Shown: one piece after another, positions 4,001-23,408 of the stretch | Layout: each line of letters opens with the position of its first letter | How positions within the stretch are numbered: the first letter of the stretch is position 1 | Origin: Candidatus Omnitrophota bacterium | GTDB lineage: Bacteria; Omnitrophota; Gorgyraeia; 2-01-FULL-45-10 | Assembly (NCBI GenBank): GCA_023247385.1 | Contig: JAHFGO010000003.1 | Coordinates: forward strand, 1 to 33,038 | Length of the DNA: 33,038 nt | Reading direction: 5' to 3' | Position numbers and translations under genes: made by a program | The notes under the pieces: model-generated | Told to the model about the DNA's origin: nothing | The model's database searches: none | What the model saw: only the letters and a program-made list of their open reading frames with translations

Positions 4001-5431
4001 TTAATTGAAGATGAAGCGATTTAAATATTTAACCCCTTTTGAACAGATTTGCGATATACCTTTCAAGCCGTGTCTTCTGACCATACTCATGATCACCGAT
4101 GGCTTCGAATAAAATGTCCTATAAATACTCCTATAACCATCTTCGAGCTCTTCGCGCGATAATGTGCTCGGGATGAATGAGATATGATGCCCTGTCCTGT
4201 TTGAGTAATCCCCTAATAACGTGCCTTTATTTTCTATGCCGTGGTATATGGGCGAACCCGGAAACGGAACGAAATACCACAAAAACATGTAATCCAGATC
4301 GATCTTTTTTATCAGATCGATCGTATCCGATATAGATTCTTTGTCTTCACCGGGGCCGCCGATTATAAAGGAACCTGCAAGCGAAATACCGCCATCCATA
4401 ATCATCCTACATTTTTCAGGTAATTCATCAAGGTGCAATTTTTTATTATAGACGTTTAACATCTTTGATGAGCCAGATTCGATCCCGAATATGACGCTGC
4501 GGCATCCAGCATCATACAGCGCTTTACCGGTATATGAATCTACGCTGTCTGCGCGCATTGAGCAGCTCCATGTGATATTATATTTCAGGAATTTATCTCT
4601 CAGCAGTTCGCATATCTCATTAAATCTATTTTTAGTAATGCAGAAATTTTCATCGGCCAAGTCGAGACAATTTACTTTGAATTTTTTAAACAGCATATCG
4701 ATCATCTCTGAAAGATAATCGATGCTGTAAAATCTGACATTTCTGCCGAGCACAGTACGGTCACAGAAGGTGCATGCGAATGGGCATCCGCGCGCAGTGA
4801 TGATGGGAAGATTGATATCTCTTTTTTCTTTATATAGGGCGGGCGAATAAGGGGAAAGGGTAATATGATCGAAAATCGGAAAGGACAATTTATTAACATC
4901 CGTTATCGTATTGCTGCTGCCTAGTGTTATCAAATTTTTCTCTTTTCTAAATATCACTCCATTGATGCCCGCCGGGCCTCGCCCTTCTTTTAAAGCCCTC
5001 ATCACCTCGACTATGGCCTCCTCGGCTTCCCCCAATATGCCGATATCGATCTCAGGACATTCGTTCATCGTCTCTTGAGGAACGGCGGTAAAATGAACTC
5101 CTCCGACAATTATTTTTATCTTAGGCTCAAGTTTTTTTATCAACGATATGAGTTTCAAAGACTTATTTACAAGAAACGTAAAGTGGACGGCTACCCCTAC
5201 GAATTCCGGATTCATCTCAACGATATTTTTAGCCAGCATCTCGATGCTTTCCGTCCCGTATGACAAATCCAACAGCCTAGTATTGATATTCGCCTTTGCG
5301 AGGCTGGCTGCTAAATAGACTAGATTTATAGGTGTTCCATATTGTCCCACAAAATCTAACAGGCCAAAATTTTCCTCTAACCCAAATGGAGGGCTGGTTA
5401 AAACAATGCCCAGCTTCTGTCCGTTCAGCAA
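4001..5431 (-). CDS. B12-binding-domain radical SAM protein (class B type)
   Basis: 476 aa. The CxxxCxxC motif occurs in ITARGCPFACTFCDR. An N-terminal Rossmann-like cobalamin-binding-type region is present (IIVGGVHFTAVPQE...GEAEEAIVEV). The start is a TTG at 5431-5429 that overlaps the upstream stop by 7 nt, preceded by AAGGAAG. Confidence 0.8.
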   Translation of the reverse strand: MLNGQKLGIVLTSPPFGLEENFGLLDFVGQYGTPINLVYLAASLAKANINTRLLDLSYGTESIEMLAKNIVEMNPEFVGVAVHFTFLVNKSLKLISLIKKLEPKIKIIVGGVHFTAVPQETMNECPEIDIGILGEAEEAIVEVMRALKEGRGPAGINGVIFRKEKNLITLGSSNTITDVNKLSFPIFDHITLSPYSPALYKEKRDINLPIITARGCPFACTFCDRTVLGRNVRFYSIDYLSEMIDMLFKKFKVNCLDLADENFCITKNRFNEICELLRDKFLKYNITWSCSMRADSVDSYTGKALYDAGCRSVIFGIESGSSKMLNVYNKKLHLDELPEKCRMIMDGGISLAGSFIIGGPGEDKESISDTIDLIKKIDLDYMFLWYFVPFPGSPIYHGIENKGTLLGDYSNRTGHHISFIPSTLSREELEDGYRSIYRTFYSKPSVIMSMVRRHGLKGISQICSKGVKYLNRFIFN

Positions 5432-6375
5432 TTTATTTCTTCCTTCACCGTATAAACAGATTTTTTTGTAGTCTCATAATATATGCGTATATTGAGCTCT
5501 GCCAGTAAACCTATGAATATGATCTGTGTCCCCAAAATGAACAGAAAGACCGCCAGCAATAACAGGGGATTTCTGTGCACCCAGAATCCCCACATGAACT
5601 TCTGAAACAGCGTAAACATTCCGCACAGCGTTCCCAGCACCATTAAAAGGATTCCCCATCCCCCAAAAAAATATAAAGGACTCGTTGAATAGTTGCCCAA
5701 AAGGAATTTCACAGTTATCAGGTCAAAGATAACCTTAAGCATCCTGTTCATTCCATATTTGGAATTCCCCCATTTGCGCTCTCTGTGATGTACTTCGACT
5801 TCCGCTATCTTCCCACCCTGCCAGTAAACATATAATGGCATAAATCGGTGCATCTCTCCATATAGATTTATATTTTTTAGAAAATCTTTTCTATAGGCCT
5901 TTAAGGTGCAGCCATAATCATGCAATTTTAGACCAGTCGATGCGGATATTATATAATTGGCTATTAAGGAGGGAAGCCGCCTCTTTATGAAAGGCTCTTT
6001 TCTTTTTCTTCTCCATCCGCTTACTAAATCATAACCATCCCTTATTTTTTGCATAAGAGAAATGATATCCTGCGGGTCATTCTGCAGGTCTGCGTCCATC
6101 GTCATGATATAGCTGCCTTTGGAATAATCGATCCCTGCGGCTATCGCTGACGTCTGTCCATAATTTCTTCTAAATATAATCCCTTTCACGTTACTATCGC
6201 TCTTCGCTGTTTGCCTTATCATCGCCTCGCTCTTATCGGTGCTGCCATCATCAACGAAGATGATCTCATAAGGGTCCTTCGATTTCGACAAAACGCCTTT
6301 TAGCTCATTATAAAGATGGGGGAGGTTTCCCTCTTCATTATATACAGGTATTACAATTGAAATAAGAGCCGCCAT
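5425..6375 (-). CDS. Polyprenyl-phosphate glycosyltransferase, GT2, ArnC/GtrB/DPM1-like, with two C-terminal TM helices
   Basis: Blocks that match remembered E. coli ArnC: VIPVYNEE, DDGSTD, RRNYGQTSAIAAG, MDADLQNDP, DYGCTLKAYR, HHRERKWGNSKY. Two hydrophobic helices follow (LYFFGGWGILLMVLG... and LLLLAVFLFILGTQIIFIGLL). I place the start at the ATG at 6375 (MAALISIVIP) because GAGAGGTGG lies 5 nt upstream. The ORF-track start at 6390 is a GTG five codons further up. Confidence 0.85.
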   Translation of the reverse strand: MAALISIVIPVYNEEGNLPHLYNELKGVLSKSKDPYEIIFVDDGSTDKSEAMIRQTAKSDSNVKGIIFRRNYGQTSAIAAGIDYSKGSYIMTMDADLQNDPQDIISLMQKIRDGYDLVSGWRRKRKEPFIKRRLPSLIANYIISASTGLKLHDYGCTLKAYRKDFLKNINLYGEMHRFMPLYVYWQGGKIAEVEVHHRERKWGNSKYGMNRMLKVIFDLITVKFLLGNYSTSPLYFFGGWGILLMVLGTLCGMFTLFQKFMWGFWVHRNPLLLLAVFLFILGTQIIFIGLLAELNIRIYYETTKKSVYTVKEEINC

Positions 6376-6398
6376 ATCCACCTCTCTCACAAGTAGCG

Positions 6399-7583
6399 CT
6401 AATATAAATCGATATCTGAATCACCATATGTCAAATACCAATTCTTTCTATCTTGAAGGAATGAACCATTTTTATTTATCATCCCCTCATTCAATAAATG
6501 TATAAGGAACCTATCATTAGATTTTATATTGATAAAACCTGACGTTCTGACAGTCCGTTGTATTACGGGACTTAAAGAATCGCATCTCACAAGATCTACC
6601 CTGCCATTAAAATCTTGAAGAGCCGTGTTGAGAAGAGAGACGCCGATATTCTTTTCCTTCGGATCAAAGAAGATATCAGAGATTATCCCTACTTTTAATC
6701 CGCCGAATCTGATGTTATCGCTCTTAACGTTAGCTTCTCGTATTACAGCATAGCCTCTTAAGCCGCCTTTTATCTCTGCGGTTAATATCTTATAGCGCCG
6801 ATATGGTTGATCTATAAATCTCCATTTCAGCATGCCCTTGTCTCTAGTCGCTATGCATGTGGATTGTTTTGAAGCCTCTAGCCAAAAACTATCAAACCCT
6901 TCATCGAAATTCACAGCTTCTGAAACCTCAACATTTTCATTCTTATGGAATCTATTCCAAAGATGCGATAATTTAAATATTGCATTTATTGTGACATGTA
7001 AAAATGGTCGCATAAGTTCCATATCAATGCTCTTTTCTAATATATTTTTAAAATTTAGCGGATATACGCTTCTATTGATAGCCCCCATGTCAAGGAAACC
7101 TGCCTTTTTGAATAGATCGTATGAGCGTTCATTTGTACCAGCCGCCATTACTATATCAATAAGGCCATTTAATTTTTTTAATGCGTGTTGAATTAAAGAG
7201 TGACCGATACCCATATTTCTGAAAAGGGGTAATATTATAAAATCCTGAAACCAACCGCCTTTATAAGTCTCTTGTCCAACTTTCAAATCTATCGGCATCA
7301 CGCAGATTTGACCAACCATTTTATCCCTGAACCGACAGATCCAAATAATAGGTTTCCACCTTACCATGGTTGGATTATCCAGATATTTCCAGTCCCAAAA
7401 CTTCTTCACCATTTCGCGCTTTTCGAATTTATCACGGTTGAACTGGTCTTTATATGCAACCATTAAAAAATCTATATATTCCTCTTTATCCGCAAGAGAT
7501 AGATTTTCAAATTCCACTTTTGGCTCATTATCGGATAATAAGAGTCCCTCAGTCCTTACAGAGTTCTTCTTATCTTCTGCCAT
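6399..7583 (-). CDS. GNAT-family N-acyltransferase with an additional C-terminal domain
   Basis: 394 aa with an ATG start. The GNAT motif A is LFRNMGIGHSLIQHALKKL, preceded by a beta-strand block GQICVMPIDLKV. About 200 further residues are of unrecognised fold. The gene overlaps the upstream CE4 gene by 28 nt. Confidence 0.6.
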   Translation of the reverse strand: MAEDKKNSVRTEGLLLSDNEPKVEFENLSLADKEEYIDFLMVAYKDQFNRDKFEKREMVKKFWDWKYLDNPTMVRWKPIIWICRFRDKMVGQICVMPIDLKVGQETYKGGWFQDFIILPLFRNMGIGHSLIQHALKKLNGLIDIVMAAGTNERSYDLFKKAGFLDMGAINRSVYPLNFKNILEKSIDMELMRPFLHVTINAIFKLSHLWNRFHKNENVEVSEAVNFDEGFDSFWLEASKQSTCIATRDKGMLKWRFIDQPYRRYKILTAEIKGGLRGYAVIREANVKSDNIRFGGLKVGIISDIFFDPKEKNIGVSLLNTALQDFNGRVDLVRCDSLSPVIQRTVRTSGFINIKSNDRFLIHLLNEGMINKNGSFLQDRKNWYLTYGDSDIDLY

Positions 7584-8368
7584 AGTTCATACCAATCATA
7601 GGCGCCTTCTAACTCTTTTGCAAACTCATATTTATCATCGAACCAGGATATGCGCGTTCGCCTCATCAGGTAGGGATCGCTCTCGATGGTATTAGAGCCG
7701 GCTATTGTGGTGAATGCTGCTTTATACCCTGCGGATTTCACCGCATCCACAGCACTTTTATCAAAAGACCCATAGCAACCAAATGGATATGCAAAAAGAT
7801 CTATTGTGGTCCTGAGATGATCTTCTAAGATGTTTTTTGATAGGCCCATCTCATTCTTCAGCTCATTTGTTTCTAGGCGATGCAGCTTCTTATGACTTAA
7901 AGAATGCGAACCGAAAGAGAATATGCCCATCGCTGTCAACTCCATGAGGTCATCCCAGTTAAGCCATTGCTCGCTCCTTCCGATAAAATTTACGGTTAAA
8001 AATATCGTCGCCCTAAACCCATATCGCGCTAAGATGGGCGCGGCATTAGTCAGATTGTCTTTAAAACCGTCATCGAATGTTATGCATATTGTTTTTGGAG
8101 GCATCTCTTTGTTTTCCTTTATGTTATCAATCATCTCGCCGCATGGTATGACAGAGTAACTATTTTCATTTAAGTATCTCATCTGTTCTTTAAAGAGCTC
8201 CTTGGGCGTTGTCATCTGATAGTTATCGTCTCCGATAAGGTCATCTGTTATCGAATGATAGGTCAACACACGGAATTCTCCCCTTGCGACATCTAAAATG
8301 GTTCGGAATGGATTAAAATGAAAGGCTATATTTGCTATTGTCTTTTTCAATGTCAGTTTTTTATCCAT
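7556..8368 (-). CDS. Polysaccharide deacetylase, NodB-homology / carbohydrate esterase 4 family
   Basis: 270 aa. NodB motif 1 is ICITFDDGFKDN, the metal-binding motif is FGSHSLSHKKL, and a later block is AYPFGCY. Its ATG directly abuts the upstream stop (TAGATG). Confidence 0.8.
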   Translation of the reverse strand: MDKKLTLKKTIANIAFHFNPFRTILDVARGEFRVLTYHSITDDLIGDDNYQMTTPKELFKEQMRYLNENSYSVIPCGEMIDNIKENKEMPPKTICITFDDGFKDNLTNAAPILARYGFRATIFLTVNFIGRSEQWLNWDDLMELTAMGIFSFGSHSLSHKKLHRLETNELKNEMGLSKNILEDHLRTTIDLFAYPFGCYGSFDKSAVDAVKSAGYKAAFTTIAGSNTIESDPYLMRRTRISWFDDKYEFAKELEGAYDWYELWQKIRRTL

Positions 8369-10225
8369 CTATATATCACCATTAAGATAATAGTAAATTA
8401 TTGCAAGATATTCGTGAACTATCCCCTTGATTTGCCGAAGGTCTATCTGTTTATGAAAGACGCCTCTTTTCACATGTGAATAAAATGAACTCTGCGGCAA
8501 AGGGGTGTATGTTACTTGTACATCTTTGGCGATCTTATCAAAGACGAGCGATACGCGCCGCATATGATAAGGAGAGCTGACCAATAAAATTTTTTTCCAT
8601 TTTTCTCTGTCTAAAATTTTTTTTGTAAATGCCACATTTTCATAGGTATTTCGCGCGGCATCCTCCAAGATGACAGCCCTTTCAGGCACACCCAATGATA
8701 TCGCCAGACCCTTCATCACCAGCGTCTCTTTAAAGACGTACATATAACCTGAGGAAAAGATCAAACGATCTGCATAACCTTTTTTGTACAATTCAACAGC
8801 ATACCCCACTCGCTCTTCATAGCCCTGGCCGGCCTTACCGGATTCTCCAACACCTCCTCCAAAGACAACGATACAATCTGCCTTCCGGGGTGCCTCTGAA
8901 ATATTTAACGGCTCGGCAATCGACCAGACTATGGGTGTACAAAATATCAGCAGATACATGCCGCCAAGAAGACTGGCTATCTTCAGTGCTCTTTTACGCG
9001 ATACTATATAAAATTTGAGAAAACGCTCCTTCCAGTCTGCGGAACTTTTGGTTTTCTTCGCAATAGCGTCTCCCATTAAATCGCCCATCTTCTCGATCCG
9101 CGCTGCCCAGCCATGCTTCTTTGCCGACTCTATCCGCTGCTCCCTCAATTCGCCAGCCTTGCCGTCAAGCACGCCTGATATCCTTTCTATAAACTCGTCA
9201 TGAGTTTTCCCAACCAGTACAATGTTATCATTCTCGTTATTAAAGTTGACAATTTCTGGCAAATTCGTAGATACTACAGGTTTGCCCATTGCATGATATT
9301 CATTTAATTTCGTGGGGAAGACGGTTGTAGTATAGCCGCTCACTTCATAAGGTATGATACAGACATCGAATTGATCTACATAATTTGGAAGAGTGGAAAA
9401 ATCTCTTTTTCCTAATAGATATATATTTGTGAGATTGCTTATCGCAGAGATATCCGCCTGTACAGGCCCAACTAGAACTATAGACCAGTCAGGATGAGAC
9501 TGGGCCATGAACTTTATTAAACCGAAATCCATATGCCTATGTATGCCGCCAACATACCCGATCACGGGCCGTTTTATATCTTTTATATCATCTGGAATAT
9601 CGGTGCCATCCTCCAGTACACTAAAGGTCTCTATATTTACTCCGAATGGGAATATATGCACATTCTTATTCAGGCCTTCGCACTTCTCTTTCAGGGCATT
9701 GCCCTGTGCAAATATCACGTCACTTTTCCTTATTAGTTCATCTTCTGTCTGGCGTATCTTTTTTGGATCATTTACCAATTCATAAAAATCTGCTATGCAG
9801 TAATAGACTAATAATTTCCTATCGATATCATTTATGATGTCGATAGCCGTGCCCGTAGGCAAGAACGTCCAGATGATAGGTTCATGAAATTCCATTATCT
9901 TCATCCATCGCCTTATAGGATTGATGAGCATATATCTATTTATATATCTAGCGATTTTAGAATATGGAAAAGGCAAAATTATCGGCGAGTACACATACAG
10001 ATTATTCATCTCCTCTCTAAAACCTCTTACGCTTTTAAACCAGTTGGCTATCCTCTTTTTGAGCCTCTGAATGTCAGTTAGGCTAGGTGGCCTGACGCCG
10101 GTGTTTTCAATAAATAAGACCCTATTGCCGTTTTTGGCAAAAGTTGACATTATCTCCTGATGGCCCTGCCATATAAAATCCCAATCGATCGAGGATATAC
10201 AAATTATGTCTTCGCCCTTTAGCAT
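8369..10225 (-). CDS. Fusion protein: N-terminal GT-B glycosyltransferase (GT4, TuaH-like), one TM helix, C-terminal DUF218 (YdcF/ElyC/SanA-like) domain
   Basis: 618 aa with an ATG at 10225. The N-terminus reads IICISSIDWDFIWQGHQEIMSTFAKNGNRVLFIEN and the acceptor/donor half reads VIGYVGG...FPTKLNEYHAMGKPVVSTNLPEI. The hydrophobic helix is ALKIASLLGGMYLLIFCTPIVWSI. The DUF218 blocks are ADCIVVFGGGVGESG, RLIFSSGY, NTYENV and ILLVSSPYHMRRV. Confidence 0.65.
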   Translation of the reverse strand: MLKGEDIICISSIDWDFIWQGHQEIMSTFAKNGNRVLFIENTGVRPPSLTDIQRLKKRIANWFKSVRGFREEMNNLYVYSPIILPFPYSKIARYINRYMLINPIRRWMKIMEFHEPIIWTFLPTGTAIDIINDIDRKLLVYYCIADFYELVNDPKKIRQTEDELIRKSDVIFAQGNALKEKCEGLNKNVHIFPFGVNIETFSVLEDGTDIPDDIKDIKRPVIGYVGGIHRHMDFGLIKFMAQSHPDWSIVLVGPVQADISAISNLTNIYLLGKRDFSTLPNYVDQFDVCIIPYEVSGYTTTVFPTKLNEYHAMGKPVVSTNLPEIVNFNNENDNIVLVGKTHDEFIERISGVLDGKAGELREQRIESAKKHGWAARIEKMGDLMGDAIAKKTKSSADWKERFLKFYIVSRKRALKIASLLGGMYLLIFCTPIVWSIAEPLNISEAPRKADCIVVFGGGVGESGKAGQGYEERVGYAVELYKKGYADRLIFSSGYMYVFKETLVMKGLAISLGVPERAVILEDAARNTYENVAFTKKILDREKWKKILLVSSPYHMRRVSLVFDKIAKDVQVTYTPLPQSSFYSHVKRGVFHKQIDLRQIKGIVHEYLAIIYYYLNGDI

Positions 10226-10252
10226 ATAATTTTTTCCATATATTAATACTAA

Positions 10253-10862: not shown

Positions 10863-10863
10863 C

Positions 10864-12302: not shown

Positions 12303-12315
12303 AATTTCAGCTGTC

Positions 12316-13422: not shown

Positions 13423-13434
13423 CGGGTTTATCTC

Positions 13435-14277: not shown

Positions 14278-14281
14278 TGCC

Positions 14282-18440: not shown

Positions 18441-19540
18441 ACAAAATTTATATGCATAGGTCTGGCACCTTTTGACCGTTTGAGAACGGCCTTCCCCTGT
18501 TTCAAATCCCAAAGAAATTCATTCACTTTATGCTGAAGACACAAGGTGCCGCACATGGTTCTCGGGTCGAACGAACTGGACGCGATATGATGCATGACCT
18601 CCCAGTATAATTTGCTTTTCCATATCTCTTTAAAAGGCTTATCTGCTATATTGCCGATATGGAATCTTTTATATTTTTTGTTAAATAGCATGCCGCATGG
18701 CGCAACCAACCCTGAGCCTGACATCTGCAAGATAAATGGTGGGCCATAACATTGCGAATATCTCCGCCTGCCGCCGCTTAAAATCTTAGACCATTTGACT
18801 TTTACCAAATATCCTTCGTGTGAATATCGCTCAGCCTCTCTCAAAATATCTGATAATTTAAAATACTGAGAATAATCGACTTTTAAACTCCCGGTTTCGT
18901 CATCGCTGCAATGCTTGATAACGGCGTAGTCGACGCCAAGCTCCTTACCGAGTTTGGCAAATGGAACGACCTGATCAGCGTATTGAGGCATCAATACCAT
19001 CTGTATCCCTAAGCTGACAGGAAGACTCTTTTCCTTTTTTATCCGCGCACATTCTTTTATAGTGCGGCATACTTTATGAAAGCAGTCCTCCTTGCATCCC
19101 ATGATTTCAGCATAGCGTGTCGGTTCTGCTGCTGATATATTGAATCTAAGATAGGTAAGGTTGGGCAACACCTCTTCCAGTCTATCACCAGTCAACAAAT
19201 AACCGTTCGTCCCTAATGCCATATCAAGACCGTTTGCCTTGCCTCTTAAAATTGCATCGTATAAATAAGGAGAGCATGTGCTTTCTCCGTCGCTGACAAA
19301 ACTGACGGCCCTGACCCCTATTTCAGCAGCATCATCGAGGAACCTGAATATTACGTCCCTCGTCATCTTCTTCTCGTCGTTGGCCTGCAGCTGCCCGTAA
19401 CAATATATGCATCTATAAGTGCACCGCCTCGTCAGAGCGCAATCGATTGTTATAGGCGCTATCCTCTCACCCCTTAGCCACGCTTCTATTCTGTCCTTAT
19501 GCCAGACCACTTTTTGACCGTCGAGGATCAGCTCCGCCAT
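18437..19540 (-). CDS. Radical SAM protein with a C-terminal auxiliary Cys region (paralog of 22341..23408)
   Basis: 367 aa. The ATG abuts the upstream stop (TAAATG). The CxxxCxxC motif occurs in ALTRRCTYRCIYCYG, followed by the SDGEST block. The C-terminal cysteines are QCYGPPFILQMSGSGLVAPCG and MCGTLCLQHKVNEFLWDL...HINFV. It aligns along its full length by eye with 22341..23408. Confidence 0.8.
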   Translation of the reverse strand: MAELILDGQKVVWHKDRIEAWLRGERIAPITIDCALTRRCTYRCIYCYGQLQANDEKKMTRDVIFRFLDDAAEIGVRAVSFVSDGESTCSPYLYDAILRGKANGLDMALGTNGYLLTGDRLEEVLPNLTYLRFNISAAEPTRYAEIMGCKEDCFHKVCRTIKECARIKKEKSLPVSLGIQMVLMPQYADQVVPFAKLGKELGVDYAVIKHCSDDETGSLKVDYSQYFKLSDILREAERYSHEGYLVKVKWSKILSGGRRRYSQCYGPPFILQMSGSGLVAPCGMLFNKKYKRFHIGNIADKPFKEIWKSKLYWEVMHHIASSSFDPRTMCGTLCLQHKVNEFLWDLKQGKAVLKRSKGARPMHINFV

Positions 19541-20311
19541 TTATAAATCTCCTCGCCGCCTAATAGCCGTAGAAGAATCGTCTGAGTAACGAATCTCGGC
19601 GTCTTTCTTATTCCTGAAATAAAAATCTTTCACTAGATGCAGATATCCATTTATCACATTTAACAAAGACGGGAATGTGACTGCTTTCGAAGGGCCGTGC
19701 CCTCTCGATCCAACCCGATACGGCACCTCGGCAAAAAGATATCCTTTCTTTACGGCCCTTATCAATATATCGGTTTGAAAGAAAAATCCGTTTGACCTGT
19801 AGTCCATCTCCTTTAATATGGATTTTCGATAAAGATTAGTTCCGTTGGTGTAATTGAAATTTACCAGAAAGCTGGTGTTGACAATGAATCGATAGACGAG
19901 AGAAAGCACGTTTCTGAAAAGAGGCCTTGCCGCTTTATTAAATATGAATGGTATGACTATATCTACCTGTTCAAGTAGTTTGTAATAGCGGAATATCTCA
20001 TTGGGATCGTTCTCGTTATCGCCGGGAAGCATCACTATGATATCTCCGAAGGCGCTATCAAGGCCATCCCAAAACGATGTGCCGACGCCTTTAGGCATCT
20101 CGTGGATGACCATCCGTATTCGACGATCGACTTTTGCCGCATCCCTCACCACCGTCTCTGTGTTATCGCTGCTTCCGTCATTTATGACTATGACCTCGCC
20201 ATTGATATCAAACCTACGAAAAGCATCCAGTGCATTTTTGATGGCGTCCGCAATATTCTTTTCTTCATTGAGTGCCGGCATAATAACCGACACCTCGACC
20301 TTATTTTGCAT
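19541..20311 (-). CDS. GT2 glycosyltransferase, Dpm1/ArnC-like catalytic domain without TM helices (paralog of 14282..14971)
   Basis: 256 aa with an ATG start. Blocks: VSVIMPALNEEKNI, VIVINDGSSDNTETVV, MLPGDNENDP, IVIPFIFNKAARPLFRNVLSLVY. There is no C-terminal membrane helix. Confidence 0.75.
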   Translation of the reverse strand: MQNKVEVSVIMPALNEEKNIADAIKNALDAFRRFDINGEVIVINDGSSDNTETVVRDAAKVDRRIRMVIHEMPKGVGTSFWDGLDSAFGDIIVMLPGDNENDPNEIFRYYKLLEQVDIVIPFIFNKAARPLFRNVLSLVYRFIVNTSFLVNFNYTNGTNLYRKSILKEMDYRSNGFFFQTDILIRAVKKGYLFAEVPYRVGSRGHGPSKAVTFPSLLNVINGYLHLVKDFYFRNKKDAEIRYSDDSSTAIRRRGDL

Positions 20312-21344
20312 GGATAGCTCTCTTCACGCTTGCCATAATCTCTTCCTTGCCCGGATAATATGCCTCTTCGAGAACTGGGCTGGCCGGCGTAGGCGTATCG
20401 GGCAAGCAGACTATCTCTACGGGAGCCTTCAAACAGGAAAAGGCCTTCTCGTAAACGACTGCCGCTATATGGGAGCCGAGACCTCCGGTCTTACAACCAA
20501 CATCAGCGATGACGAGCCTTCCCGTCTTTCTTAAAGAATCGAGTATCAACTCTTCATCCAATGGCTTTATTGTCCTAGGATCTACGATCTCAATATCTAT
20601 ATTCTCAGATTGCAAGGAATCCGCTGCTTTTATTGCCTCGTATACCATCTGCGAGACCGCGACCACAGTTACGTCTTTACCCTGCCTCCTTACGATACCT
20701 TTACCAACAGGAACCTTATAAACATCTGGCGGAACGTATCCAATATAATCATATACCCACCTATGTTCGATAAATATAACGGGGTTGGCGTCTTCCACTG
20801 CCGATATCAAAAGGCCTTTTGCATCATAAGGTGTAGAAGGCATAACTACCTTCAGGCCCGGAATATGGACAAATAGAGAATGCAATGCCTGAGAGTGTTG
20901 TGCAGCCGATCCCCACCCCCTCCCGATAATGCTTCTTATAACAATGGGCACATTTACCCTGCCTCCTGTCATATAATTCCATTTCGCGGCATGATTTATT
21001 ATCTGATCCATGGCCATCAGGAGAAAATCCATCCTCATGTGCACAAATATCGGCCTCATACCGCATATGGCAGCGCCTATCGCTATTCCTGTCAAAGCGT
21101 TCTCTGCTACAGGTATATCCATAACCCTGTCTTTGCCGAACTCTTTAGCTAGCCCAGCCGTGGTTCCAAATATTCCGCCTGAATCATTGACACCCTCTCC
21201 CAGTATGAAAATCCGCTTATCCTTCTTGAGCAGTGCGGATTGCGTCTCCCTTAGCGCTTCGCGATAGGTGATGCCGCGTAGGCCGTCTCTGGCAAGGGTA
21301 TTCTCAAAATCGTCTTTATTTATATATACTCTAGTCCAAGGCAT
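20301..21344 (-). CDS. ThDP-dependent 2-oxoacid dehydrogenase E1 component, beta subunit-like (transketolase Pyr and C-terminal domains)
   Basis: Blocks: ITYREALRETQSALLKKDKRIFILGEGV, VMDIPVAENALTGIAIGAAICGMRPIF, SPYDAKGLL-type PSTPYDAKGLLISAVED. I place the start at the ATG at 21344 (MPWTRV), with AGGA 7 nt upstream. The ORF-track start at 21413 adds 23 residues and a long overlap with the alpha gene. Confidence 0.8.
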   Translation of the reverse strand: MPWTRVYINKDDFENTLARDGLRGITYREALRETQSALLKKDKRIFILGEGVNDSGGIFGTTAGLAKEFGKDRVMDIPVAENALTGIAIGAAICGMRPIFVHMRMDFLLMAMDQIINHAAKWNYMTGGRVNVPIVIRSIIGRGWGSAAQHSQALHSLFVHIPGLKVVMPSTPYDAKGLLISAVEDANPVIFIEHRWVYDYIGYVPPDVYKVPVGKGIVRRQGKDVTVVAVSQMVYEAIKAADSLQSENIDIEIVDPRTIKPLDEELILDSLRKTGRLVIADVGCKTGGLGSHIAAVVYEKAFSCLKAPVEIVCLPDTPTPASPVLEEAYYPGKEEIMASVKRAIHAK

Positions 21345-22326
21345 CTTTTGATCCTGCATAATAAACGTCGTCGTACAATTCTTCTTTTGCGGGAAATGGG
21401 CTCTTTTGCGCAAATCTTACTGCATCTTCTATTTCGCAATCGACGGCTTTAACCATCTCTTCTATCCCGCTTTGGTTAATGATTTTGTTCTTAAATAGAT
21501 ATTTTTTATACGATTCCAGAGGGCATCTCTTCATCCAATCGTATAGCTCTTTCTCAGGCCGGCATCCTTTCTCATAATCGCATTCCGGCCCCACGTGCCC
21601 TTTCCATCTGTATGTTCTGCATTCGATCAATGTTGGACCCTTTCCAGCCCTTATCCTTTCGATGGCCTTCTTCGCCGACTTATATATACCGAGCACATCG
21701 TTCCCATCAACTTGAATACCGGGGATATCGTATCCCTGTGCTCTCCTGGCTATATCATCATGTGGTTGCCGGACCGCTATATGGGAGTTGGTAGCATAAA
21801 AATTATTCTCACAGACAAAGACGACAGGAAGTTTTTTGAGCGAGGCGAAATTCATGCTTTCATGAAATGTGCCTTCATCGACAGCGCCATCCCCAAAGAA
21901 GGCAACAGCTATTTTCTTCTGGCCGTTCATTTTTATAGCCAGCGCCGCACCCGTCGCCAAGGCTATACCGCTGCCGACTATCGCCGAGGTCCCTAATATT
22001 CCAACCTCTGGACTTACCAGATGCATCGACCCGCCCTTGCCGCTTGAGCAGCCACTCGACTTGCCGTAAAGTTCGGCCATTAAAAATCTAATACTTGCGC
22101 CTTTGGCAATATAATGCCCGTGATTTCTGTGCGTGCTGAAGATGATGTCTTCTTTGCACAAGAGAGCGCATACGCCGGCCGCTATGGCTTCTTGTCCAAT
22201 ATATAGATGAACTGGCGTCTTCATATCCTGTGACGGATAAAGCTCCGTTACCTTCTCTTCAAAACGCCGGATCTTGAGCATCGTATAAAATAACTGTTTT
22301 TTTACCGCGGCTTGGATCTTATTCAA
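21331..22326 (-). CDS. ThDP-dependent 2-oxoacid dehydrogenase E1 component, alpha subunit-like
   Basis: The ThDP-binding motif is GDGAVDEGTFHESMNFASLKKLPVVFVCENNFYA (GDG...NN). The N-terminal block YTMLKIRRFEEKV and HLYIGQEAIAAG are also present. I place the start at the TTG at 22326 (MNKIQAAV), 10 nt after AGGAGG and downstream of the upstream TAG stop. The ORF-track start at 22383 is also a TTG but overlaps the upstream gene by 43 nt. Confidence 0.8.
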   Translation of the reverse strand: MNKIQAAVKKQLFYTMLKIRRFEEKVTELYPSQDMKTPVHLYIGQEAIAAGVCALLCKEDIIFSTHRNHGHYIAKGASIRFLMAELYGKSSGCSSGKGGSMHLVSPEVGILGTSAIVGSGIALATGAALAIKMNGQKKIAVAFFGDGAVDEGTFHESMNFASLKKLPVVFVCENNFYATNSHIAVRQPHDDIARRAQGYDIPGIQVDGNDVLGIYKSAKKAIERIRAGKGPTLIECRTYRWKGHVGPECDYEKGCRPEKELYDWMKRCPLESYKKYLFKNKIINQSGIEEMVKAVDCEIEDAVRFAQKSPFPAKEELYDDVYYAGSKDALD

Positions 22327-22340
22327 GATCGCATGCCCTC

Positions 22341-23408
22341 CTAAATAAAATTGACGTGTTCCGGAGGATGTCTCAATTCCCAAAGATACCTGTTTATCTC
22401 ATCCATCCTGCAGTTAACCCTGCACCTATTGGCATCAAGCTTATTTCCAGCCATATTTGCTATCTTCTTTCTTCTCGGCCCGTTCCAGATTTTCTTAAAA
22501 CTATTTTTATAAATGTTTCCGTAAATAAACGACCCATCTCCCAAATATGCACTACACCCCCAAATGTTTCCTCCGGCATCGATATAGCTCCAGAAAGGAA
22601 GGGCATAACAATGCCTGTAATTTCGCTCTGCTTCATCCCATTTCTTCATGGTCTTGACGCGGAAGACGATATTAAATTTTTCATCATTCAGAGCATTCAA
22701 CTCATCTGTTAAATACAGGTACTTGCTGTAACTTATATTCTTGTATTTGCTCGTCTTGCTAAACGGATGGTGTGAATAAGGCTTCACGACCAGATAATCC
22801 ATCCCTAGGGCCTTTGCCTTCTTCGCCAGAAGCACAACCTCGCCGGCGTTTTCATCTAGTAGTAAAAGCTGCATACCAAGAGCACATTCATACTTTTTCG
22901 CCCTTTTTACGCCGACGGCATATGAGAGGTTTTCCATCACTTTGTCGAAATCGTCCGCATTTGCATTATGTATCTTTGCATATCTATCTCGGGTGGCACC
23001 GTTTATGCTCACCTTGATCCAAGAGGTGCTGCCAAGCATCTTATTGATTAGTTCTTTTTTCAATAAGACGCCGTTTGTCGTTAGGGCAACATCAATACCA
23101 AGCCTTTTCGTATAATTGATTATATCCGCTATATCCTTATGAAGCAACGGTTCCCCTTCTCCTGCATACATGATGCTCTTTATGCCTAATCCAGCCATCT
23201 CACACAGCTGCTCTTTCAGTAAAGCGGTGTCGAGAAAGATCGGTCTATATTCCAAAAAATCCAGTGCGCAGAAGGTGCAGCGGTGGTTGCATCCTCCCGA
23301 AGGCGCTATCTCAAGATATATAGGATAAACGGCATTGCCTTTCAGCCAGTCATTAACACGCTCCACATGATAAATCAATTTGTGGCTGTCTATCTTAAAT
23401 TTATCCAT
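22341..23408 (-). CDS. Radical SAM protein with a C-terminal auxiliary Cys region (paralog of 18437..19540)
   Basis: 355 aa. The ATG overlaps the upstream stop by 8 nt. The CxxxCxxC motif occurs in APSGGCNHRCTFCAL, followed by the GEGEPLL block. The C-terminal cysteines are HCYALPFWSYIDAGGNIWGCS and RCRVNCRMDEINRYLWEL...HVNFI. Confidence 0.8.
   Translation of the reverse strand: MDKFKIDSHKLIYHVERVNDWLKGNAVYPIYLEIAPSGGCNHRCTFCALDFLEYRPIFLDTALLKEQLCEMAGLGIKSIMYAGEGEPLLHKDIADIINYTKRLGIDVALTTNGVLLKKELINKMLGSTSWIKVSINGATRDRYAKIHNANADDFDKVMENLSYAVGVKRAKKYECALGMQLLLLDENAGEVVLLAKKAKALGMDYLVVKPYSHHPFSKTSKYKNISYSKYLYLTDELNALNDEKFNIVFRVKTMKKWDEAERNYRHCYALPFWSYIDAGGNIWGCSAYLGDGSFIYGNIYKNSFKKIWNGPRRKKIANMAGNKLDANRCRVNCRMDEINRYLWELRHPPEHVNFI

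What the first reader, a model, noticed from the sequence alone, without database searches (positions are those of the whole stretch)
4001..23408. Five radical SAM enzymes (two B12-class, three with SPASM/twitch-like Cys clusters) inside one glycan operon
Seen in the sequence:
- Five separate ORFs carry a CxxxCxxC motif: RGCPFACTFC (4001..5431), RGCPYDCMFC (14978..16474), NRCNMRCRHC (17418..18440), RRCTYRCIYC (18437..19540) and GGCNHRCTFC (22341..23408).
- The first two have an N-terminal cobalamin-binding-type Rossmann region.
- The other three have extra C-terminal cysteines: C-x17-C followed by C-x3-C in the paralog pair, and C-x18-C followed by CxCxxxC in the third.

Established knowledge: radical SAM enzymes that modify sugars are known individually. 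Examples are DesII deamination/dehydration, BtrN-type twitch dehydrogenases, AprD4 dehydratase and GenK/Fom3-type class B C-methylases.

Inference: I am not aware of a characterised cell-surface polysaccharide locus that uses five. The product therefore probably contains one or more sugars with radical-installed modifications such as C-methylation, deoxygenation, oxidation or C-C extension. This is my best candidate for undescribed chemistry in the window.
Basis: partly seen in the sequence, partly recalled or inferred. Interest (0 to 1): 0.8.

Follow-up and report, generated by a model that had tools for sequence, protein, structure and literature searches.

The report
Radical SAM enzymes tailoring envelope sugars
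An uncultured anaerobe's cell-envelope sugar operon really does carry five radical SAM enzymes (seven on the full contig), and they belong to conserved, so far uncharacterised gene modules found in many anaerobic phyla that probably build unusual branched, methylated or otherwise rearranged surface sugars.

Summary
The window has exactly five CxxxCxxC proteins, all above Pfam cut-offs: two B12-binding plus Radical_SAM, and three Radical_SAM plus SPASM. The three SPASM types carry only 4-5 invariant extra Cys, so they are twitch-like rather than full SPASM. None reaches any NCBIfam equivalog cut-off, and all PDB relatives are distant.

The window is part of a co-directional LPS-type array of more than 53 kb. 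That array includes a WecA-like transferase, Wzy_C, a heptosyltransferase, GT2s and GT-C-like proteins, and holds seven rSAMs in all.

Gene context splits the five enzymes into two groups.
- **SPASM_E (22341-23408).** In 16 ortholog loci from several phyla it follows GmhA-like, HldE-like and SDR genes. A TPP enzyme pair (E1 alpha/beta or split transketolase) is the next gene in 10 of 16 loci and lies within 10 kb in 14 of 16. I read this as radical chemistry on an activated heptose feeding a two-carbon C-C addition.
- **The other four.** Each sits next to a GT2. Orthologs keep this adjacency in 10 of 12 loci, and natural GT2 fusions exist. The likely role is tailoring of sugars handled by ArnC/DPM1-like transferases.

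No peptide or cofactor context was seen, and ten literature searches found no description. The chemistry itself is inferred. Novelty: new variant of a known kind. Interest: about 0.66.

The parts
22341..23408 (-). SPASM_E: 355-aa twitch-like radical SAM enzyme. The rSAM cluster Cys are C40/C44/C47 and the auxiliary Cys are C267/C285/C329/C333.
   Evidence: Pfam Radical_SAM 74.4 and SPASM 31.2 bits. No NCBIfam equivalog. The family is very large and highly conserved: 5883 hits at E<=1e-10, and the top 120 are 63-72% identical and almost all 355 aa (344-362). The Cys are invariant. AF2 pLDDT is 89, and the best PDB fold match is DesII at E 7e-17 and TM 0.64-0.68. Conserved context is SIS/HldE-like/SDR upstream and a TPP enzyme downstream.
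23401..23970 (-). GmhA-like SIS isomerase (189 aa)
   Evidence: Pfam SIS_2. TIGR00441 gmhA scores 100.9 bits against a cut-off of 209. It lies next to SPASM_E in most ortholog loci.
23973..25514 (-). HldE-like bifunctional protein with reversed domain order (nucleotidyltransferase at the N-terminus, PfkB kinase at the C-terminus)
   Evidence: CTP_transf_like covers residues 35-161 and PfkB covers 354-498. rfaE_dom_II matches 21-161 and rfaE_dom_I matches 195-495, and both are below cut-off. The gene is conserved upstream of SPASM_E.
25511..26506 (-). SDR3: epimerase-like short-chain dehydrogenase of the heptose cassette
   Evidence: Pfam Epimerase 200.9 bits. The motifs ASSSCYG / YxxxK lack the dehydratase Asp-Glu pair. 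Orthologs at 61-74% identity lie next to HldE-like/SIS/SPASM_E.
20301..22383 (-). Stand-alone E1 alpha (21331-22383) and E1 beta (20301-21413) TPP-dependent pair. No E2 or E3 is in the array.
   Evidence: E1_dh 263 bits, Transket_pyr 132 bits and Transketolase_C 136 bits. NCBIfam PDH E1 beta subfamily 352.8 bits. An E1 pair or a split transketolase is the next gene after SPASM_E in 10 of 16 ortholog loci.
19541..20311 (-). GT2_256: soluble ArnC/DPM1-like GT2, partner of SPASM_D
   Evidence: Glycos_transf_2 74.8 bits. Best NCBIfam similarities are the ArnC N-domain, AglJ, PpgS and Dol-P hexose transferase, all below cut-off. It is adjacent to SPASM_D orthologs in 4 of 6 evaluable loci.
18437..19540 (-). 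SPASM_D: 367-aa twitch-like radical SAM enzyme, a 27% identical paralog of SPASM_E
   Evidence: Radical_SAM 57.6 and SPASM 27.9 bits. Paralogy is shown and the shared invariant Cys. Orthologs at 59-74% identity occur in eight loci.
17418..18440 (-). SPASM_C: 340-aa radical SAM enzyme with five invariant C-terminal Cys (C-x17-C, CxCx3C)
   Evidence: Radical_SAM 54.1 and SPASM 28.8 bits. 294 homologs. Cys conservation is 116 of 116. It is always followed by a ~300-aa GT2, including in Pelagibacter.
16487..17416 (-). GT2_309: GT2 with two C-terminal hydrophobic segments, partner of SPASM_C
   Evidence: Glycos_transf_2 113 bits. Hydrophobic segments at 248-296. Orthologs lie directly after SPASM_C in L033, L034 and L036.
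14978..16474 (-). B12rSAM_B: 498-aa B12-binding radical SAM enzyme
   Evidence: B12-binding 59.6 and Radical_SAM 91.9 bits. Best NCBIfam hits are BchE and HpnJ at 186 and 167 bits, far below cut-offs. Best PDB hits are QCMT 9ccb and AprD4. The nearest representative is 52% identical. The 58% ortholog in L038 lies between a GT2 and a polysaccharide deacetylase, after a YerE/ALS-type TPP enzyme.
11379..14971 (-). Formamido-sugar (Arn-like) cassette: GT2_229 (14282-14971), formyltransferase (13435-14304), DegT aminotransferase (12316-13422) and SDR2 (11379-12350)
   Evidence: Pfam. NCBIfam ArnA formyltransferase domain 154.9 bits, PseC/ArnB 226/206 bits and dTDP-glucose 4,6-dehydratase 114.5 bits, all below cut-off. 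The cassette is absent from the otherwise syntenic L033, so it looks like an insertion into the conserved core.
10350..11385 (-). hyp173 and hyp170: a pair of small membrane proteins of unknown function. A flippase role is my guess only.
   Evidence: No Pfam match. Several hydrophobic segments in the N-terminal half of each protein. The conserved pair is present in L033, L034 and L047.
8369..10225 (-). GT1_DUF218: TuaH-like GT-B glycosyltransferase fused to a DUF218/ElyC-like domain
   Evidence: Pfam. NCBIfam TuaH 123.5 bits. Orthologs at 53-59% identity precede GT2_321 in L033 and L043.
6399..8368 (-). Polysaccharide deacetylase (7556-8368, ArnD-type family) and a GNAT acyltransferase (6399-7583)
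   Evidence: Polysacc_deac_1 85 bits and Acetyltransf_1 44.9 bits.
5425..6390 (-). GT2_321: full-length ArnC/GtrB-like polyprenyl-phosphate glycosyltransferase with C-terminal hydrophobic segments (238-302), partner of B12rSAM_A
   Evidence: NF007986 ArnC scores 218.9 bits over 7-311 of 316 positions, below the cut-off of 529. Hydrophobic segments. Orthologs at 68-69% identity lie upstream of a B12 rSAM in L043 (directly) and L033 (one methyltransferase gene between).
4001..5431 (-). B12rSAM_A: 476-aa B12-binding radical SAM enzyme
   Evidence: B12-binding 76.8 and Radical_SAM 49.5 bits. Best NCBIfam hit is HpnJ at 168 bits against a cut-off of 577.6. The best PDB hit is AprD4. Orthologs at 55-66% identity occur in Omnitrophota and Nitrospirota. 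It lies between GT2_321 and PMT_2 here and next to a GT2 in L043 and L044. More distant relatives are fused to a GT2 (P0356) or to class I methyltransferases.
2741..3991 (-). PMT_2 family GT-C membrane glycosyltransferase (ArnT / protein O-mannosyltransferase type)
   Evidence: PMT_2 41 bits against a GA of 26.1. About ten overlapping hydrophobic segments were flagged. Orthologs follow the B12 rSAM in L033, L043 and L047.
1..2721 (-). GT4 glycosyltransferase (1537-2721), UXS/ArnA-decarboxylase-like SDR1 (563-1531) and the N-terminal part of a WecA-like Glycos_transf_4 (1 to about 560)
   Evidence: Pfam. The ASTSEIYG motif is and the edge translation. The native contig annotates Glycos_transf_4, Wzy_C, Glyco_transf_9 and a B12 rSAM next.
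26503..33024 (-). Upstream envelope genes: tandem 70%-identical polytopic membrane proteins hyp577a and hyp577b, GT2_305 (30077-30994) and hyp677
   Evidence: No Pfam or PDB matches for the hyp proteins. Hydrophobic segments. 70% identity and a FWDDN motif after TM1. Reading them as GT-C-like is only a guess.

Best explanation
The window is a slice of a long LPS-type or cell-envelope glycan biosynthesis operon. It comes from an uncultured anaerobe whose closest gene matches split between Brocadiales and Omnitrophota. The five radical SAM enzymes are glycan-pathway enzymes of two kinds.

(1) SPASM_E is the radical step of a conserved heptose module.
- A GmhA-like isomerase, a reversed-order HldE-like kinase/nucleotidyltransferase and an epimerase-like SDR make an activated heptose.
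- SPASM_E is a DesII/BtrN-like enzyme with one auxiliary cluster. It abstracts a sugar hydrogen to oxidise or dehydrate the heptose to a carbonyl intermediate.
- The adjacent TPP enzyme (an E1 alpha/beta pair here, a split transketolase in other lineages) adds a two-carbon unit.
- The product would be a branched or chain-extended nine-carbon sugar.

(2) SPASM_D, SPASM_C, B12rSAM_A and B12rSAM_B each work with the GT2 encoded beside them.
- Those partner GT2s are ArnC/DPM1-like.
- The operon also holds a small membrane-protein pair, an ArnD-type deacetylase and GT-C membrane transferases.
- These rSAMs therefore most likely tailor sugars once they sit on polyprenyl phosphate or on the lipid-linked glycan.
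- The B12 enzymes would perform C-methylation, or an HpnJ-like rearrangement.
- The SPASM types would perform oxidation, epimerisation or deoxygenation.
- Tailoring would precede flipping and transfer to LPS or a surface protein.

Shown: the domains, the conserved cysteines, the gene linkages and their conservation across phyla.

Inferred: the substrates, the reaction types and the order of steps.
For: - **Domains and motifs:**
- **Glycan/LPS context:** GT2, GT4, GT1 and GT-C genes, the amino-sugar cassette, and a WecA-like gene, Wzy_C and a heptosyltransferase on the native contig. The Brocadiales version sits in a Wza/Wzz/Wzy_C locus.
- **SPASM_E linkage:** SIS, HldE-like or SDR3 genes lie directly upstream in 12 of 14 genome loci. 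A TPP pair is the very next gene in 10 of 16 ortholog loci and in the window. It is separated only by a NUDIX gene in 2 more, and lies within 10 kb in 14 of 16. E1 and split-transketolase forms replace each other at this position.
- **Fold:** the best match of a confident model (pLDDT 89) is DesII, a nucleotide-sugar rSAM. BlsE and BtrN are also matched.
- **GT2 pairing:** orthologs of C, D, A and B lie directly beside a same-strand GT2 in 10 of 12 evaluable loci, against a rough chance expectation of 10%. SPASM_E orthologs do so in 0 of 15.
- **Natural fusions:** B12-rSAM+GT2 (P0356), B12-rSAM+DUF2334 (my reading: deacetylase-like), B12-rSAM+LPG_synthase_TM and B12-rSAM+class I methyltransferase.
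- **L038:** the order is TPP enzyme, GT2, B12rSAM_B ortholog, deacetylase.
- **GT2 types:** GT2_321 aligns full-length to ArnC. GT2_256 and GT2_229 resemble the ArnC N-domain, PpgS and Dol-P hexose transferase.
- **Precedents:** E1-like AviB1/B2 and Pau11/12, and YerE, add C-4 acetyl branches to sugars (PMC4753412). HpnJ is proposed to contract the sugar ring of lipid-bound bacteriohopanetetrol glucosamine (PMC9204698). An rSAM calditol synthase forms the calditol head group of archaeal tetraether lipids (PMC13459092). MoeK5 is listed among the Csp3 rSAM methyltransferases (PMC12931638).
- **Product plausibility:** anammox surface glycans contain heptose chains and methylated sugars (10.1101/2020.12.03.409086; PMC5088730).
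Against: - No member of any of the five families has a known activity. All similarity to characterised enzymes is at superfamily level: NCBIfam scores are a third or less of the cut-offs, and PDB identities are 14-20%.
- Gene adjacency cannot tell whether an rSAM acts before its GT2 (on the nucleotide sugar) or after it (on the lipid-linked sugar).
- GT2_256 and GT2_229 have no membrane segments, and their assignment as polyprenyl-phosphate transferases rests on weak scores.
- No GmhB-type phosphatase is present, and the GmhA and HldE models are not met, so the starting sugar may not be a heptose.
- SDR3 looks like an epimerase and not a dehydratase, so the source of a keto group is unclear.
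- The final acceptor (LPS, capsule or S-layer protein) is not identified.
- Co-transcription has not been demonstrated.
Confidence: 0.6

Rival explanations
1. All five rSAMs act only on soluble nucleotide sugars, as in deoxysugar pathways of natural products (DesII, AprD4/GenK-type logic). The adjacent GT2s simply use the finished donors, and no chemistry happens on lipid-linked sugars.
For: - SPASM_E clearly sits among nucleotide-sugar genes, and its best fold match is DesII.
- A NUDIX gene follows it in L003 and L047.
- Adjacency to a GT2 is equally expected if the GT2 consumes the modified donor.
- To my knowledge, most characterised sugar rSAMs act on soluble substrates.
Against: - SPASM_E, the enzyme linked to nucleotide-sugar genes, is never GT2-adjacent (0 of 15). 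The other four are (10 of 12). This suggests two different stages.
- Fusions of B12-rSAM relatives to a GT2, to a membrane LPG_synthase_TM domain and to a DUF2334 domain point to the membrane stage.
- The order GT2, rSAM, deacetylase in L038 mirrors ArnC then ArnD, which acts on the lipid-linked sugar.
- Both B12 enzymes have their strongest amphipathic helix at the extreme C-terminus. This is a weak hint only.
Confidence: 0.25
2. The modules decorate a membrane lipid head group or a glycolipid rather than a polysaccharide. This would be hopanoid cyclitol-ether (HpnI/J/K) or calditol-type chemistry, or ladderane-related chemistry. The B12 enzymes would be HpnJ-like ring-contraction enzymes.
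For: - HpnJ is the best NCBIfam hit for B12rSAM_A and the second best for B12rSAM_B.
- The GT2, deacetylase and B12-rSAM combination resembles HpnI/HpnK/HpnJ.
- The lipid B12-rSAM model TIGR04072 is also hit.
- rSAMs that remodel sugar head groups on lipids are known (PMC9204698, PMC13459092).
Against: - HpnJ scores are 167-168 bits against a cut-off of 577.6, no better than BchE, ApyD or PhpK.
- No hopanoid, squalene or fatty-acid genes occur in 53 kb of context.
- The array carries Wzy_C, a heptosyltransferase, a WecA-like transferase and many GTs, which is typical of LPS or polysaccharide loci.
- The deacetylase is Polysacc_deac_1, whereas to my knowledge HpnK is YdjC-type.
Confidence: 0.08
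3. The SPASM-type enzymes are peptide or cofactor maturases (RiPP, sulfatase-maturase, MoaA/PqqE-like) that merely lie inside a sugar locus.
For: The best NCBIfam and PDB sequence hits include MoaA, a tungsten-cofactor maturase, SkfB, SuiB, anSME and PqqE.
Against: - All those scores are far below family cut-offs.
- Among ORFs of 100 aa or more and the called genes, no peptidase, RiPP transporter or cofactor gene appears in the window or in some 20 homologous loci. Short precursor-peptide ORFs were not searched for specifically.
- The neighbours are instead consistently SIS/HldE-like/SDR, TPP enzymes and GT2s across phyla.
- The enzymes have 4-5 auxiliary Cys, whereas peptide maturases typically have the 7-Cys SPASM set.
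Confidence: 0.03

Closest known systems
DesII (dTDP-4-amino-4,6-dideoxy-D-glucose ammonia-lyase; also dehydrogenates TDP-quinovose) and BtrN (twitch rSAM dehydrogenase)
   Same: These are rSAM enzymes with a C-terminal auxiliary-cluster domain that abstract H from a sugar or cyclitol carbon. DesII is the top structural match of the SPASM_E model (E 7e-17, TM 0.64-0.68), and BtrN is also matched. SPASM_D and E have four invariant extra Cys, consistent with a single auxiliary cluster of the kind I recall for twitch enzymes such as BtrN.
   Different: Identity is only 14-16%. TIGR04426 DesII scores 33-37 bits against a cut-off of 450. The context is heptose activation plus a TPP enzyme in envelope glycan loci, not a dTDP-deoxyhexose antibiotic pathway. 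The substrate and reaction are unknown.
Class B cobalamin-dependent rSAM enzymes acting on sugars or lipid-linked sugars (GenK, Fom3, MoeK5 methylases; HpnJ ring contraction; AprD4 as a B12-less relative)
   Same: They share the N-terminal B12-binding Rossmann domain plus rSAM core. Best hits are HpnJ, BchE, QCMT and AprD4. Relatives are fused to class I methyltransferases and to a GT2.
   Different: No equivalog model is met: scores are 168-186 bits against cut-offs of 480-580. The nearest representative of B12rSAM_B is only 52% identical. The genes sit in LPS-type operons next to ArnC-like GT2s, a context not described for any characterised member.
AviB1/AviB2 and Pau11/Pau12 (E1-like pairs) and YerE: TPP-dependent two-carbon branching of keto-sugars
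   Same: This is a stand-alone E1 alpha/beta pair without E2 or E3 inside a sugar pathway. The literature precedent is installation of a C-4 acetyl branch from pyruvate (PMC4753412). A YerE/ALS-type TPP enzyme sits beside the B12rSAM_B ortholog in L038.
   Different: Here the TPP enzyme is coupled to an rSAM and to heptose genes, and in other lineages it is replaced by a split transketolase. Direct homology to AviB1/B2 was not tested, and the acceptor sugar is unknown.
Arn (L-Ara4N) pathway and Gtr-type three-component periplasmic glycosylation (ArnB/A/C/D/E/F/T; GtrA/B/C)
   Same: The logic is the same. An aminotransferase and a formyltransferase feed an ArnC-like polyprenyl-P transferase. 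An ArnD-family deacetylase, small membrane proteins and a PMT_2/ArnT-type GT-C follow.
   Different: Every NCBIfam Arn equivalog scores below cut-off (ArnC 219/529, ArnB 206/631, ArnA 155/777). No ArnE/F homologs were detected. rSAM genes are inserted between the GT2 and GT-C steps, which the Arn and Gtr systems lack.
ADP-L-glycero-D-manno-heptose pathway (GmhA, HldE, GmhB, HldD)
   Same: A SIS isomerase and a kinase/nucleotidyltransferase protein are most similar to GmhA and HldE.
   Different: The domain order is reversed. All scores are below cut-off (100.9/209, 143.6/521). No GmhB is present. The SDR is closer to GalE/LegB than to HldD. An rSAM and a TPP enzyme follow.

Membership tests
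Radical SAM superfamily (PF04055) | CX3CX2C cluster-binding motif near the start of the core domain | tested here: met
   There are five motifs, one per protein, and they are invariant in the family alignments.
Radical SAM superfamily (PF04055) | Profile match above Pfam gathering score | tested here: met
   Scores of 49.5, 91.9, 54.1, 57.6 and 74.4 bits against a GA of 29.5.
Radical SAM superfamily (PF04055) | Reductive cleavage of SAM by a [4Fe-4S] cluster | not testable with these tools
   This needs purified, reconstituted protein.
Cobalamin-dependent (class B) radical SAM enzymes | N-terminal B12-binding Rossmann domain followed by the rSAM core | tested here: met
   PF02310 scores 76.8 bits (residues 28-143) and 59.6 bits (24-132) against a GA of 32.1. 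The rSAM domains follow at 210-374 and 195-357.
Cobalamin-dependent (class B) radical SAM enzymes | Membership of a characterised subfamily (HpnJ, BchE, PhpK, HpnR, QCMT, KedN5, etc.) | tested here: not met
   The best scores are 168-186 bits against cut-offs of 481-578.
Cobalamin-dependent (class B) radical SAM enzymes | Cobalamin actually bound and used (methyl transfer or other) | not testable with these tools
   AprD4 shows that a B12-like domain need not bind B12, and AprD4 is among the best PDB hits.
SPASM subfamily | PF13186 match above gathering score | tested here: met
   Scores of 28.8, 27.9 and 31.2 bits against a GA of 21.5.
SPASM subfamily | Seven-cysteine motif (CX9-15GX4C ... 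CX2CX5CX3C ... C) for two auxiliary clusters | tested here: not met
   Only C-x17-C plus C-x3-C (4 Cys) is invariant in the D/E family, and C-x17-C plus CxCx3C (5 Cys) in the C family. The first half-motif, including Gx4C, is present.
Twitch subfamily (BtrN-like, one auxiliary cluster) | Abridged SPASM domain with about four Cys for a single auxiliary cluster | tested here: met
   There are four invariant Cys in D/E. The AF2 model (pLDDT 89) superposes on DesII, BlsE and BtrN. The cluster count itself has not been measured.
ADP-heptose pathway (GmhA/HldE/GmhB/HldD) | Proteins reach the equivalog cut-offs, with canonical HldE domain order and GmhB present | tested here: not met
   gmhA scores 100.9/209.45, HldE 143.6/521 with domains swapped, and heptose_epim 112.8/274.6. 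No HAD phosphatase occurs in the window or the listed flanks.
Arn lipid A L-Ara4N modification system | ArnB, ArnA, ArnC, ArnD, ArnT and ArnE/F equivalogs | tested here: not met
   ArnC scores 218.9/529, ArnB 205.9/631 and ArnA 154.9/777. PMT_2 and Polysacc_deac_1 match only at Pfam family level. No ArnE/F was found.
AviB1/AviB2-type sugar C2-branching E1 pairs | Adjacent E1 alpha and beta genes without E2 or E3, inside a sugar pathway | tested here: met
   Searches show the pair, and no E2 or E3 appears in the gene lists.
AviB1/AviB2-type sugar C2-branching E1 pairs | Specific sequence relationship to AviB1/B2 or Pau11/12, and transfer of a C2 unit to a keto-sugar | not tested
Hopanoid HpnI/HpnJ/HpnK cyclitol-ether system | HpnJ equivalog with hopanoid biosynthesis genes nearby | tested here: not met
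   HpnJ scores 168.1/577.6. No hopanoid genes occur in about 53 kb.
RiPP or cofactor rSAM maturases | Conserved neighbourhood with a precursor peptide, peptidase/transporter or cofactor genes | tested here: not met
   Among ORFs of 100 aa or more and the called genes, neighbourhoods of homologs in about 20 loci are sugar and glycosyltransferase genes only. Short precursor-peptide ORFs were not searched for.

The most novel reading that the evidence does not exclude
Two undescribed kinds of radical sugar chemistry operate in the envelopes of many anaerobic phyla.

(a) A widespread 355-aa twitch rSAM family converts an activated heptose into a carbonyl intermediate. A TPP enzyme then extends or branches it by two carbons. 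This would be a new route to nine-carbon or branched higher sugars in LPS or S-layer glycans.

(b) Modular GT2-rSAM pairs, including B12-dependent ones, tailor sugars while they are carried on polyprenyl phosphate. The tailoring could be C-methylation, ring contraction or deoxygenation. This would be a stage of glycan biosynthesis where, to my knowledge, radical chemistry has not been demonstrated.
Probability: 0.35. Interest if true: 0.85.

Novelty: new variant of a known kind. Interest (0 to 1): 0.66.

Why it matters
Radical SAM sugar chemistry is known almost entirely from antibiotic pathways. Here it appears as a conserved, modular part of cell-envelope glycan synthesis across Brocadiales, Omnitrophota, Nitrospirota, Desulfobacterota, Lentisphaerota and SAR11. 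One family, SPASM_E, gives thousands of database hits, yet no member has a known function.

If the proposed roles hold, they would explain how anaerobes make C-branched, C-methylated or higher-carbon sugars without oxygen. They would also add new reactions to the rSAM repertoire and point to unusual surface antigens in environmentally important, uncultured bacteria such as anammox organisms.

The conserved trio of heptose-activation genes, rSAM and TPP enzyme gives a concrete in vitro experiment that can be run directly.

Tried and rejected
- **NCBIfam equivalogs.** None reached cut-off for any of the five rSAMs or their partners.
- **PDB sequence searches.** All five rSAMs gave only distant superfamily hits. 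hyp577a, hyp677 and PMT_2 gave none.
- **AF2 of hyp577a.** The two-sequence alignment gave pLDDT 36, which is unusable, so its GT-C assignment stays a guess.
- **Metagenome scan for B12rSAM_B.** It returned only five loci, one of them a clear ortholog.
- **Rfam.** No riboswitch or other RNA family was found in the window.
- **Promoter and terminator scan.** Promoter-like sites were at chance level and no convincing intergenic terminator stood out, so it was uninformative about operon boundaries.
- **Ten literature searches.** None found a paper that links rSAM enzymes with heptose, LPS or polyprenyl-sugar modules. The two anammox S-layer glycan papers that I read were term-searched only. One holds no 'radical SAM'. 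The other was not scanned for that term.
- **Rejected readings.**
  - RiPP or cofactor maturases: the context is wrong.
  - Hopanoid or ladderane lipid pathway: no lipid genes are present and scores are far below cut-off.
  - A genuine arn operon or ADP-heptose pathway: the equivalog tests are not met.
- **Source organism.** It could not be fixed.

Full report
**1. Observation**

The window is one long minus-strand gene array of 29 ORFs from 563 to 33024. A truncated gene lies at the left edge. Gaps between genes are 19 nt or less, or the genes overlap, except for two gaps of about 120 nt.

Pfam confirms all five claimed radical SAM proteins above the gathering cut-offs.

| Name | Coordinates | Length | Pfam domains |
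|---|---|---|---|
| B12rSAM_A | 4001-5431 | 476 aa | B12-binding + Radical_SAM |
| B12rSAM_B | 14978-16474 | 498 aa | B12-binding + Radical_SAM |
| SPASM_C | 17418-18440 | 340 aa | Radical_SAM + SPASM |
| SPASM_D | 18437-19540 | 367 aa | Radical_SAM + SPASM |
| SPASM_E | 22341-23408 | 355 aa | Radical_SAM + SPASM |

- The five CxxxCxxC motifs are the only ones in any six-frame ORF of at least 100 codons. About 0.05 would be expected by chance.
- D and E are 27% identical paralogs, and so are A and B.
- The D/E family has four invariant extra cysteines, C-x17-C ... C-x3-C.
- The C family has five in 116 of 116 sequences, C-x17-C ... CxCx3C.
- The three enzymes therefore pass the SPASM profile but lack the seven-Cys SPASM set. 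They are twitch-like.

**2. No known subfamily**

- None of the five reaches any NCBIfam equivalog cut-off. The best scores are HpnJ/BchE at 168-186 bits against cut-offs of 481-578, and the tungsten-cofactor maturase or rSAM_ACGX at 73-89 bits against 380-400.
- PDB sequence hits are distant: MoaA, BlsE, DesII, SkfB, AprD4, QCMT (9CCB; identified in PMC12931638), TokK and OxsB.
- A confident AF2 model of SPASM_E (pLDDT 89) matches DesII best (E 7e-17, TM 0.64-0.68). SuiB, SkfB, BlsE, anSME, viperins, PqqE, MoaA and BtrN follow, at 14-20% identity.

**3. Setting**

The other window genes are as follows.
- Five GT2s.
- A GT4.
- A TuaH-like GT fused to DUF218.
- A PMT_2 GT-C.
- Two 70%-identical polytopic membrane proteins.
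- A pair of small membrane proteins.
- A GmhA-like SIS protein.
- An HldE-like protein with swapped domain order.
- Three SDRs.
- A stand-alone E1 alpha/beta pair.
- An aminotransferase/formyltransferase cassette.
- A polysaccharide deacetylase.
- A GNAT.

The left edge encodes the start of a WecA-like Glycos_transf_4.

The exact proteins occur on a 168.7-kb ENA contig (ERZ27297570) and on Logan contigs of SRR14366766. The gene lists of that contig show the same-strand array continuing in both directions.
- Downstream: Glycos_transf_4, Wzy_C, Glyco_transf_9, a third B12 rSAM (452 aa, 25-26% identical to A and B) and six more GT2s.
- Upstream: among others, methyltransferases, a formyltransferase and a further rSAM/SPASM protein of 328 aa.

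The native locus thus has at least seven rSAMs in more than 53 kb and looks like an LPS core or O-antigen type region.

The source phylum is unresolved. The best matches split between Brocadiales (Anammoxibacter, Wunengus) and Omnitrophota.

**4. Related loci: SPASM_E**

- SPASM_E belongs to a very large family: 5883 proteins at E<=1e-10. The best 120 are 63-72% identical and almost all exactly 355 aa (344-362).
- Orthologs were fetched from Brocadiales, Thermodesulfovibrionales, Nitrospiraceae, Omnitrophota, Actinomycetota, Planctomycetia, Desulfobacterota, Victivallales and Lentisphaerae.
- In 12 of 14 genome loci, SIS, HldE-like or SDR3 genes lie directly upstream.
- A TPP enzyme pair is the very next gene after SPASM_E in 10 of 16 ortholog loci, and in the window. 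It is an E1 alpha/beta pair in some lineages and a split transketolase in others.
- The TPP pair is separated only by a NUDIX gene in two more loci, and lies within 10 kb in 14 of 16.
- SPASM_E is never next to a GT2 (0 of 15).
- This three-way linkage across phyla is the strongest functional evidence obtained. It ties SPASM_E to an activated heptose-like sugar and to a TPP-dependent C-C bond-forming step.
- The precedent for that step is AviB1/B2, Pau11/12 and YerE, which add a C-4 acetyl branch to keto-sugars (PMC4753412).

**5. Related loci: the other four**

Each of the other four lies beside a GT2 in the window, and orthologs keep the pairing.
- SPASM_C is followed by a ~300-aa GT2 in all three independent ortholog loci, including Pelagibacter.
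- SPASM_D is adjacent to a GT2_256-type gene in 4 of 6 evaluable loci.
- B12rSAM_A orthologs (55-65% identity) directly follow a GT2 in L043 and L044.
- The B12rSAM_B ortholog (58%) in L038 lies between a GT2 and a polysaccharide deacetylase, after a YerE/ALS-type TPP enzyme.
- Together that is 10 of 12, against a rough 10% expectation.

Natural fusions strengthen the link.
- B12-rSAM+GT2 (P0356).
- B12-rSAM+DUF2334, which I read as deacetylase-like.
- B12-rSAM+LPG_synthase_TM.
- Several B12-rSAM+class I methyltransferase proteins.

The partner GT2s are ArnC-like.
- GT2_321 aligns over its full length to ArnC (219 bits, below cut-off) and has hydrophobic segments in its C-terminal part (residues 238-302).
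- GT2_256 and GT2_229 resemble the ArnC catalytic domain, PpgS and Dol-P hexose transferase.

Whole-block synteny is also conserved.
- GT1_DUF218, GT2_321, B12 rSAM, PMT_2, GT4, SDR1, then Glycos_transf_4, Wzy_C and a heptosyltransferase recur in L043. Most of this block also recurs in L033, which ends within PMT_2. Extra methyltransferase genes are interspersed in both loci.
- A Brocadiales MAG carries a compact version of the whole system inside a Wza/Wzz/Wzy_C locus.
- The formamido-sugar cassette with B12rSAM_B is absent from L033, so it looks like an insertion into the conserved core.

**6. Interpretation**

The evidence supports glycan-pathway rSAMs of two kinds.
- **Nucleotide-sugar-stage enzyme (SPASM_E).** It is coupled to a two-carbon addition.
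- **GT2-coupled tailoring enzymes (C, D, A, B).** They plausibly act on polyprenyl-phosphate-linked sugars, between an ArnC-like transferase and a GT-C transferase. ArnD acts at that stage in the Arn pathway. HpnJ is likewise proposed to rearrange a lipid-bound glucosamine, and an rSAM calditol synthase forms a lipid head group (PMC9204698, PMC13459092). MoeK5 is a further rSAM sugar methylase precedent (PMC12931638).

The reaction types are inferred from superfamily resemblance only. They include C-methylation, HpnJ-like rearrangement, oxidation, dehydration and epimerisation.

Anammox S-layer glycans with oligo-heptose chains, methylated HexNAc and dimethyl-deoxyhexoses show that heptose-rich, heavily methylated surface glycans exist in this group (PMC5088730; 10.1101/2020.12.03.409086). 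No structure can be tied to this locus.

**7. Rivals**

- Action only on soluble nucleotide sugars cannot be excluded for C, D, A and B.
- A lipid-head-group role is unlikely, because no lipid genes are present and the markers are typical of LPS loci.
- A peptide or cofactor maturase role is contradicted by every neighbourhood examined.

**8. Novelty**

The superfamilies and the general idea of rSAM sugar tailoring are known. Three things were not found in the searchable literature.
- The conserved heptose-rSAM-TPP module.
- The recurrent GT2-rSAM pairs.
- Their wide phyletic spread in envelope glycan loci.

None of the five reaches a curated NCBIfam family cut-off.

I rate this a new variant of a known kind, with interest of about 0.66.

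Noticed in passing
window 26503-28236 and 28236-29969 (-): Two adjacent 577-aa polytopic membrane proteins are 70% identical, so this is a recent tandem duplication. They have no Pfam or PDB match and share a conserved FWDDN motif just after the first TM helix. They could be GT-C-type transferases or polymerases. The AF2 attempt failed (pLDDT 36).
   Followed up: partly
window 23973-25514 (-): The HldE-like protein has its two domains in the opposite order to canonical HldE: nucleotidyltransferase first, kinase second. The same 510-517-aa architecture is conserved next to SPASM_E in many phyla. No GmhB phosphatase is present in the array.
   Followed up: partly
native contig ERZ27297570 (outside the window; L046:12994-14352 for one of them): Two further rSAM genes lie in the same co-directional array. 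One is a 328-aa rSAM/SPASM about 6 kb upstream of 33024. The other is a 452-aa B12 rSAM about 4 kb beyond position 1, again directly next to a GT2 and followed by six GT2 genes in a row.
   Followed up: partly
window 10350-11385 (-); L033:9962-10994; L034:12838-13891; L047:16047-17103: A conserved pair of ~170-aa proteins has hydrophobic N-terminal halves and soluble C-terminal tails with faint winged-helix-like hits. They have no family assignment and always travel with the SPASM_D/GT2 module.
   Followed up: partly
L044 (Nitrospirota MAG GCA_016208875.1) 1587-11503: This locus has five rSAM genes (three with B12 domains) plus an asparagine-synthase-like gene and a GT2. Multi-rSAM sugar loci are therefore recurrent in anaerobes.
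   Followed up: no
proteins P0421, P0432, P0446, P0481, P0373: Relatives of B12rSAM_B include giant proteins of 1900-2600 aa that match the query in two to five separate stretches, which suggests repeated B12-rSAM units. One relative carries an intein inserted before the rSAM core.
   Followed up: no
L036/L037 (Candidatus Pelagibacter, marine metagenomes) 5925-7870: A 40% identical SPASM_C ortholog followed by a GT2 lies in a SAR11 glycosylation island. The SPASM_C-GT2 pair thus extends to aerobic marine Alphaproteobacteria.
   Followed up: no
window 4001-5431 (-), residues C274, C290, C310: The B12rSAM_A family has three further highly conserved cysteines inside the rSAM domain (conserved in 106-112 of 112 sequences). 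Two of them align with Cys in B12rSAM_B. This may be an additional metal site.
   Followed up: no
window 4001-5431 and 14978-16474 (-), C-termini: In both B12 rSAMs the strongest amphipathic helix of the whole protein is at the extreme C-terminus (residues 457-474 and 471-488). This could be an interfacial membrane anchor.
   Followed up: no
L047:11091-11534 and L003:7795-8270: A NUDIX hydrolase gene is inserted between SPASM_E and the split transketolase in two lineages. It hints that the nucleotide may be removed from the sugar before the TPP step.
   Followed up: no
window 17418-18512 (-): The longest ORF for SPASM_C starts at a TTG 72 nt upstream and would overlap SPASM_D. Homologs and the public gene call support the 340-aa form starting at 18440.
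   Followed up: yes
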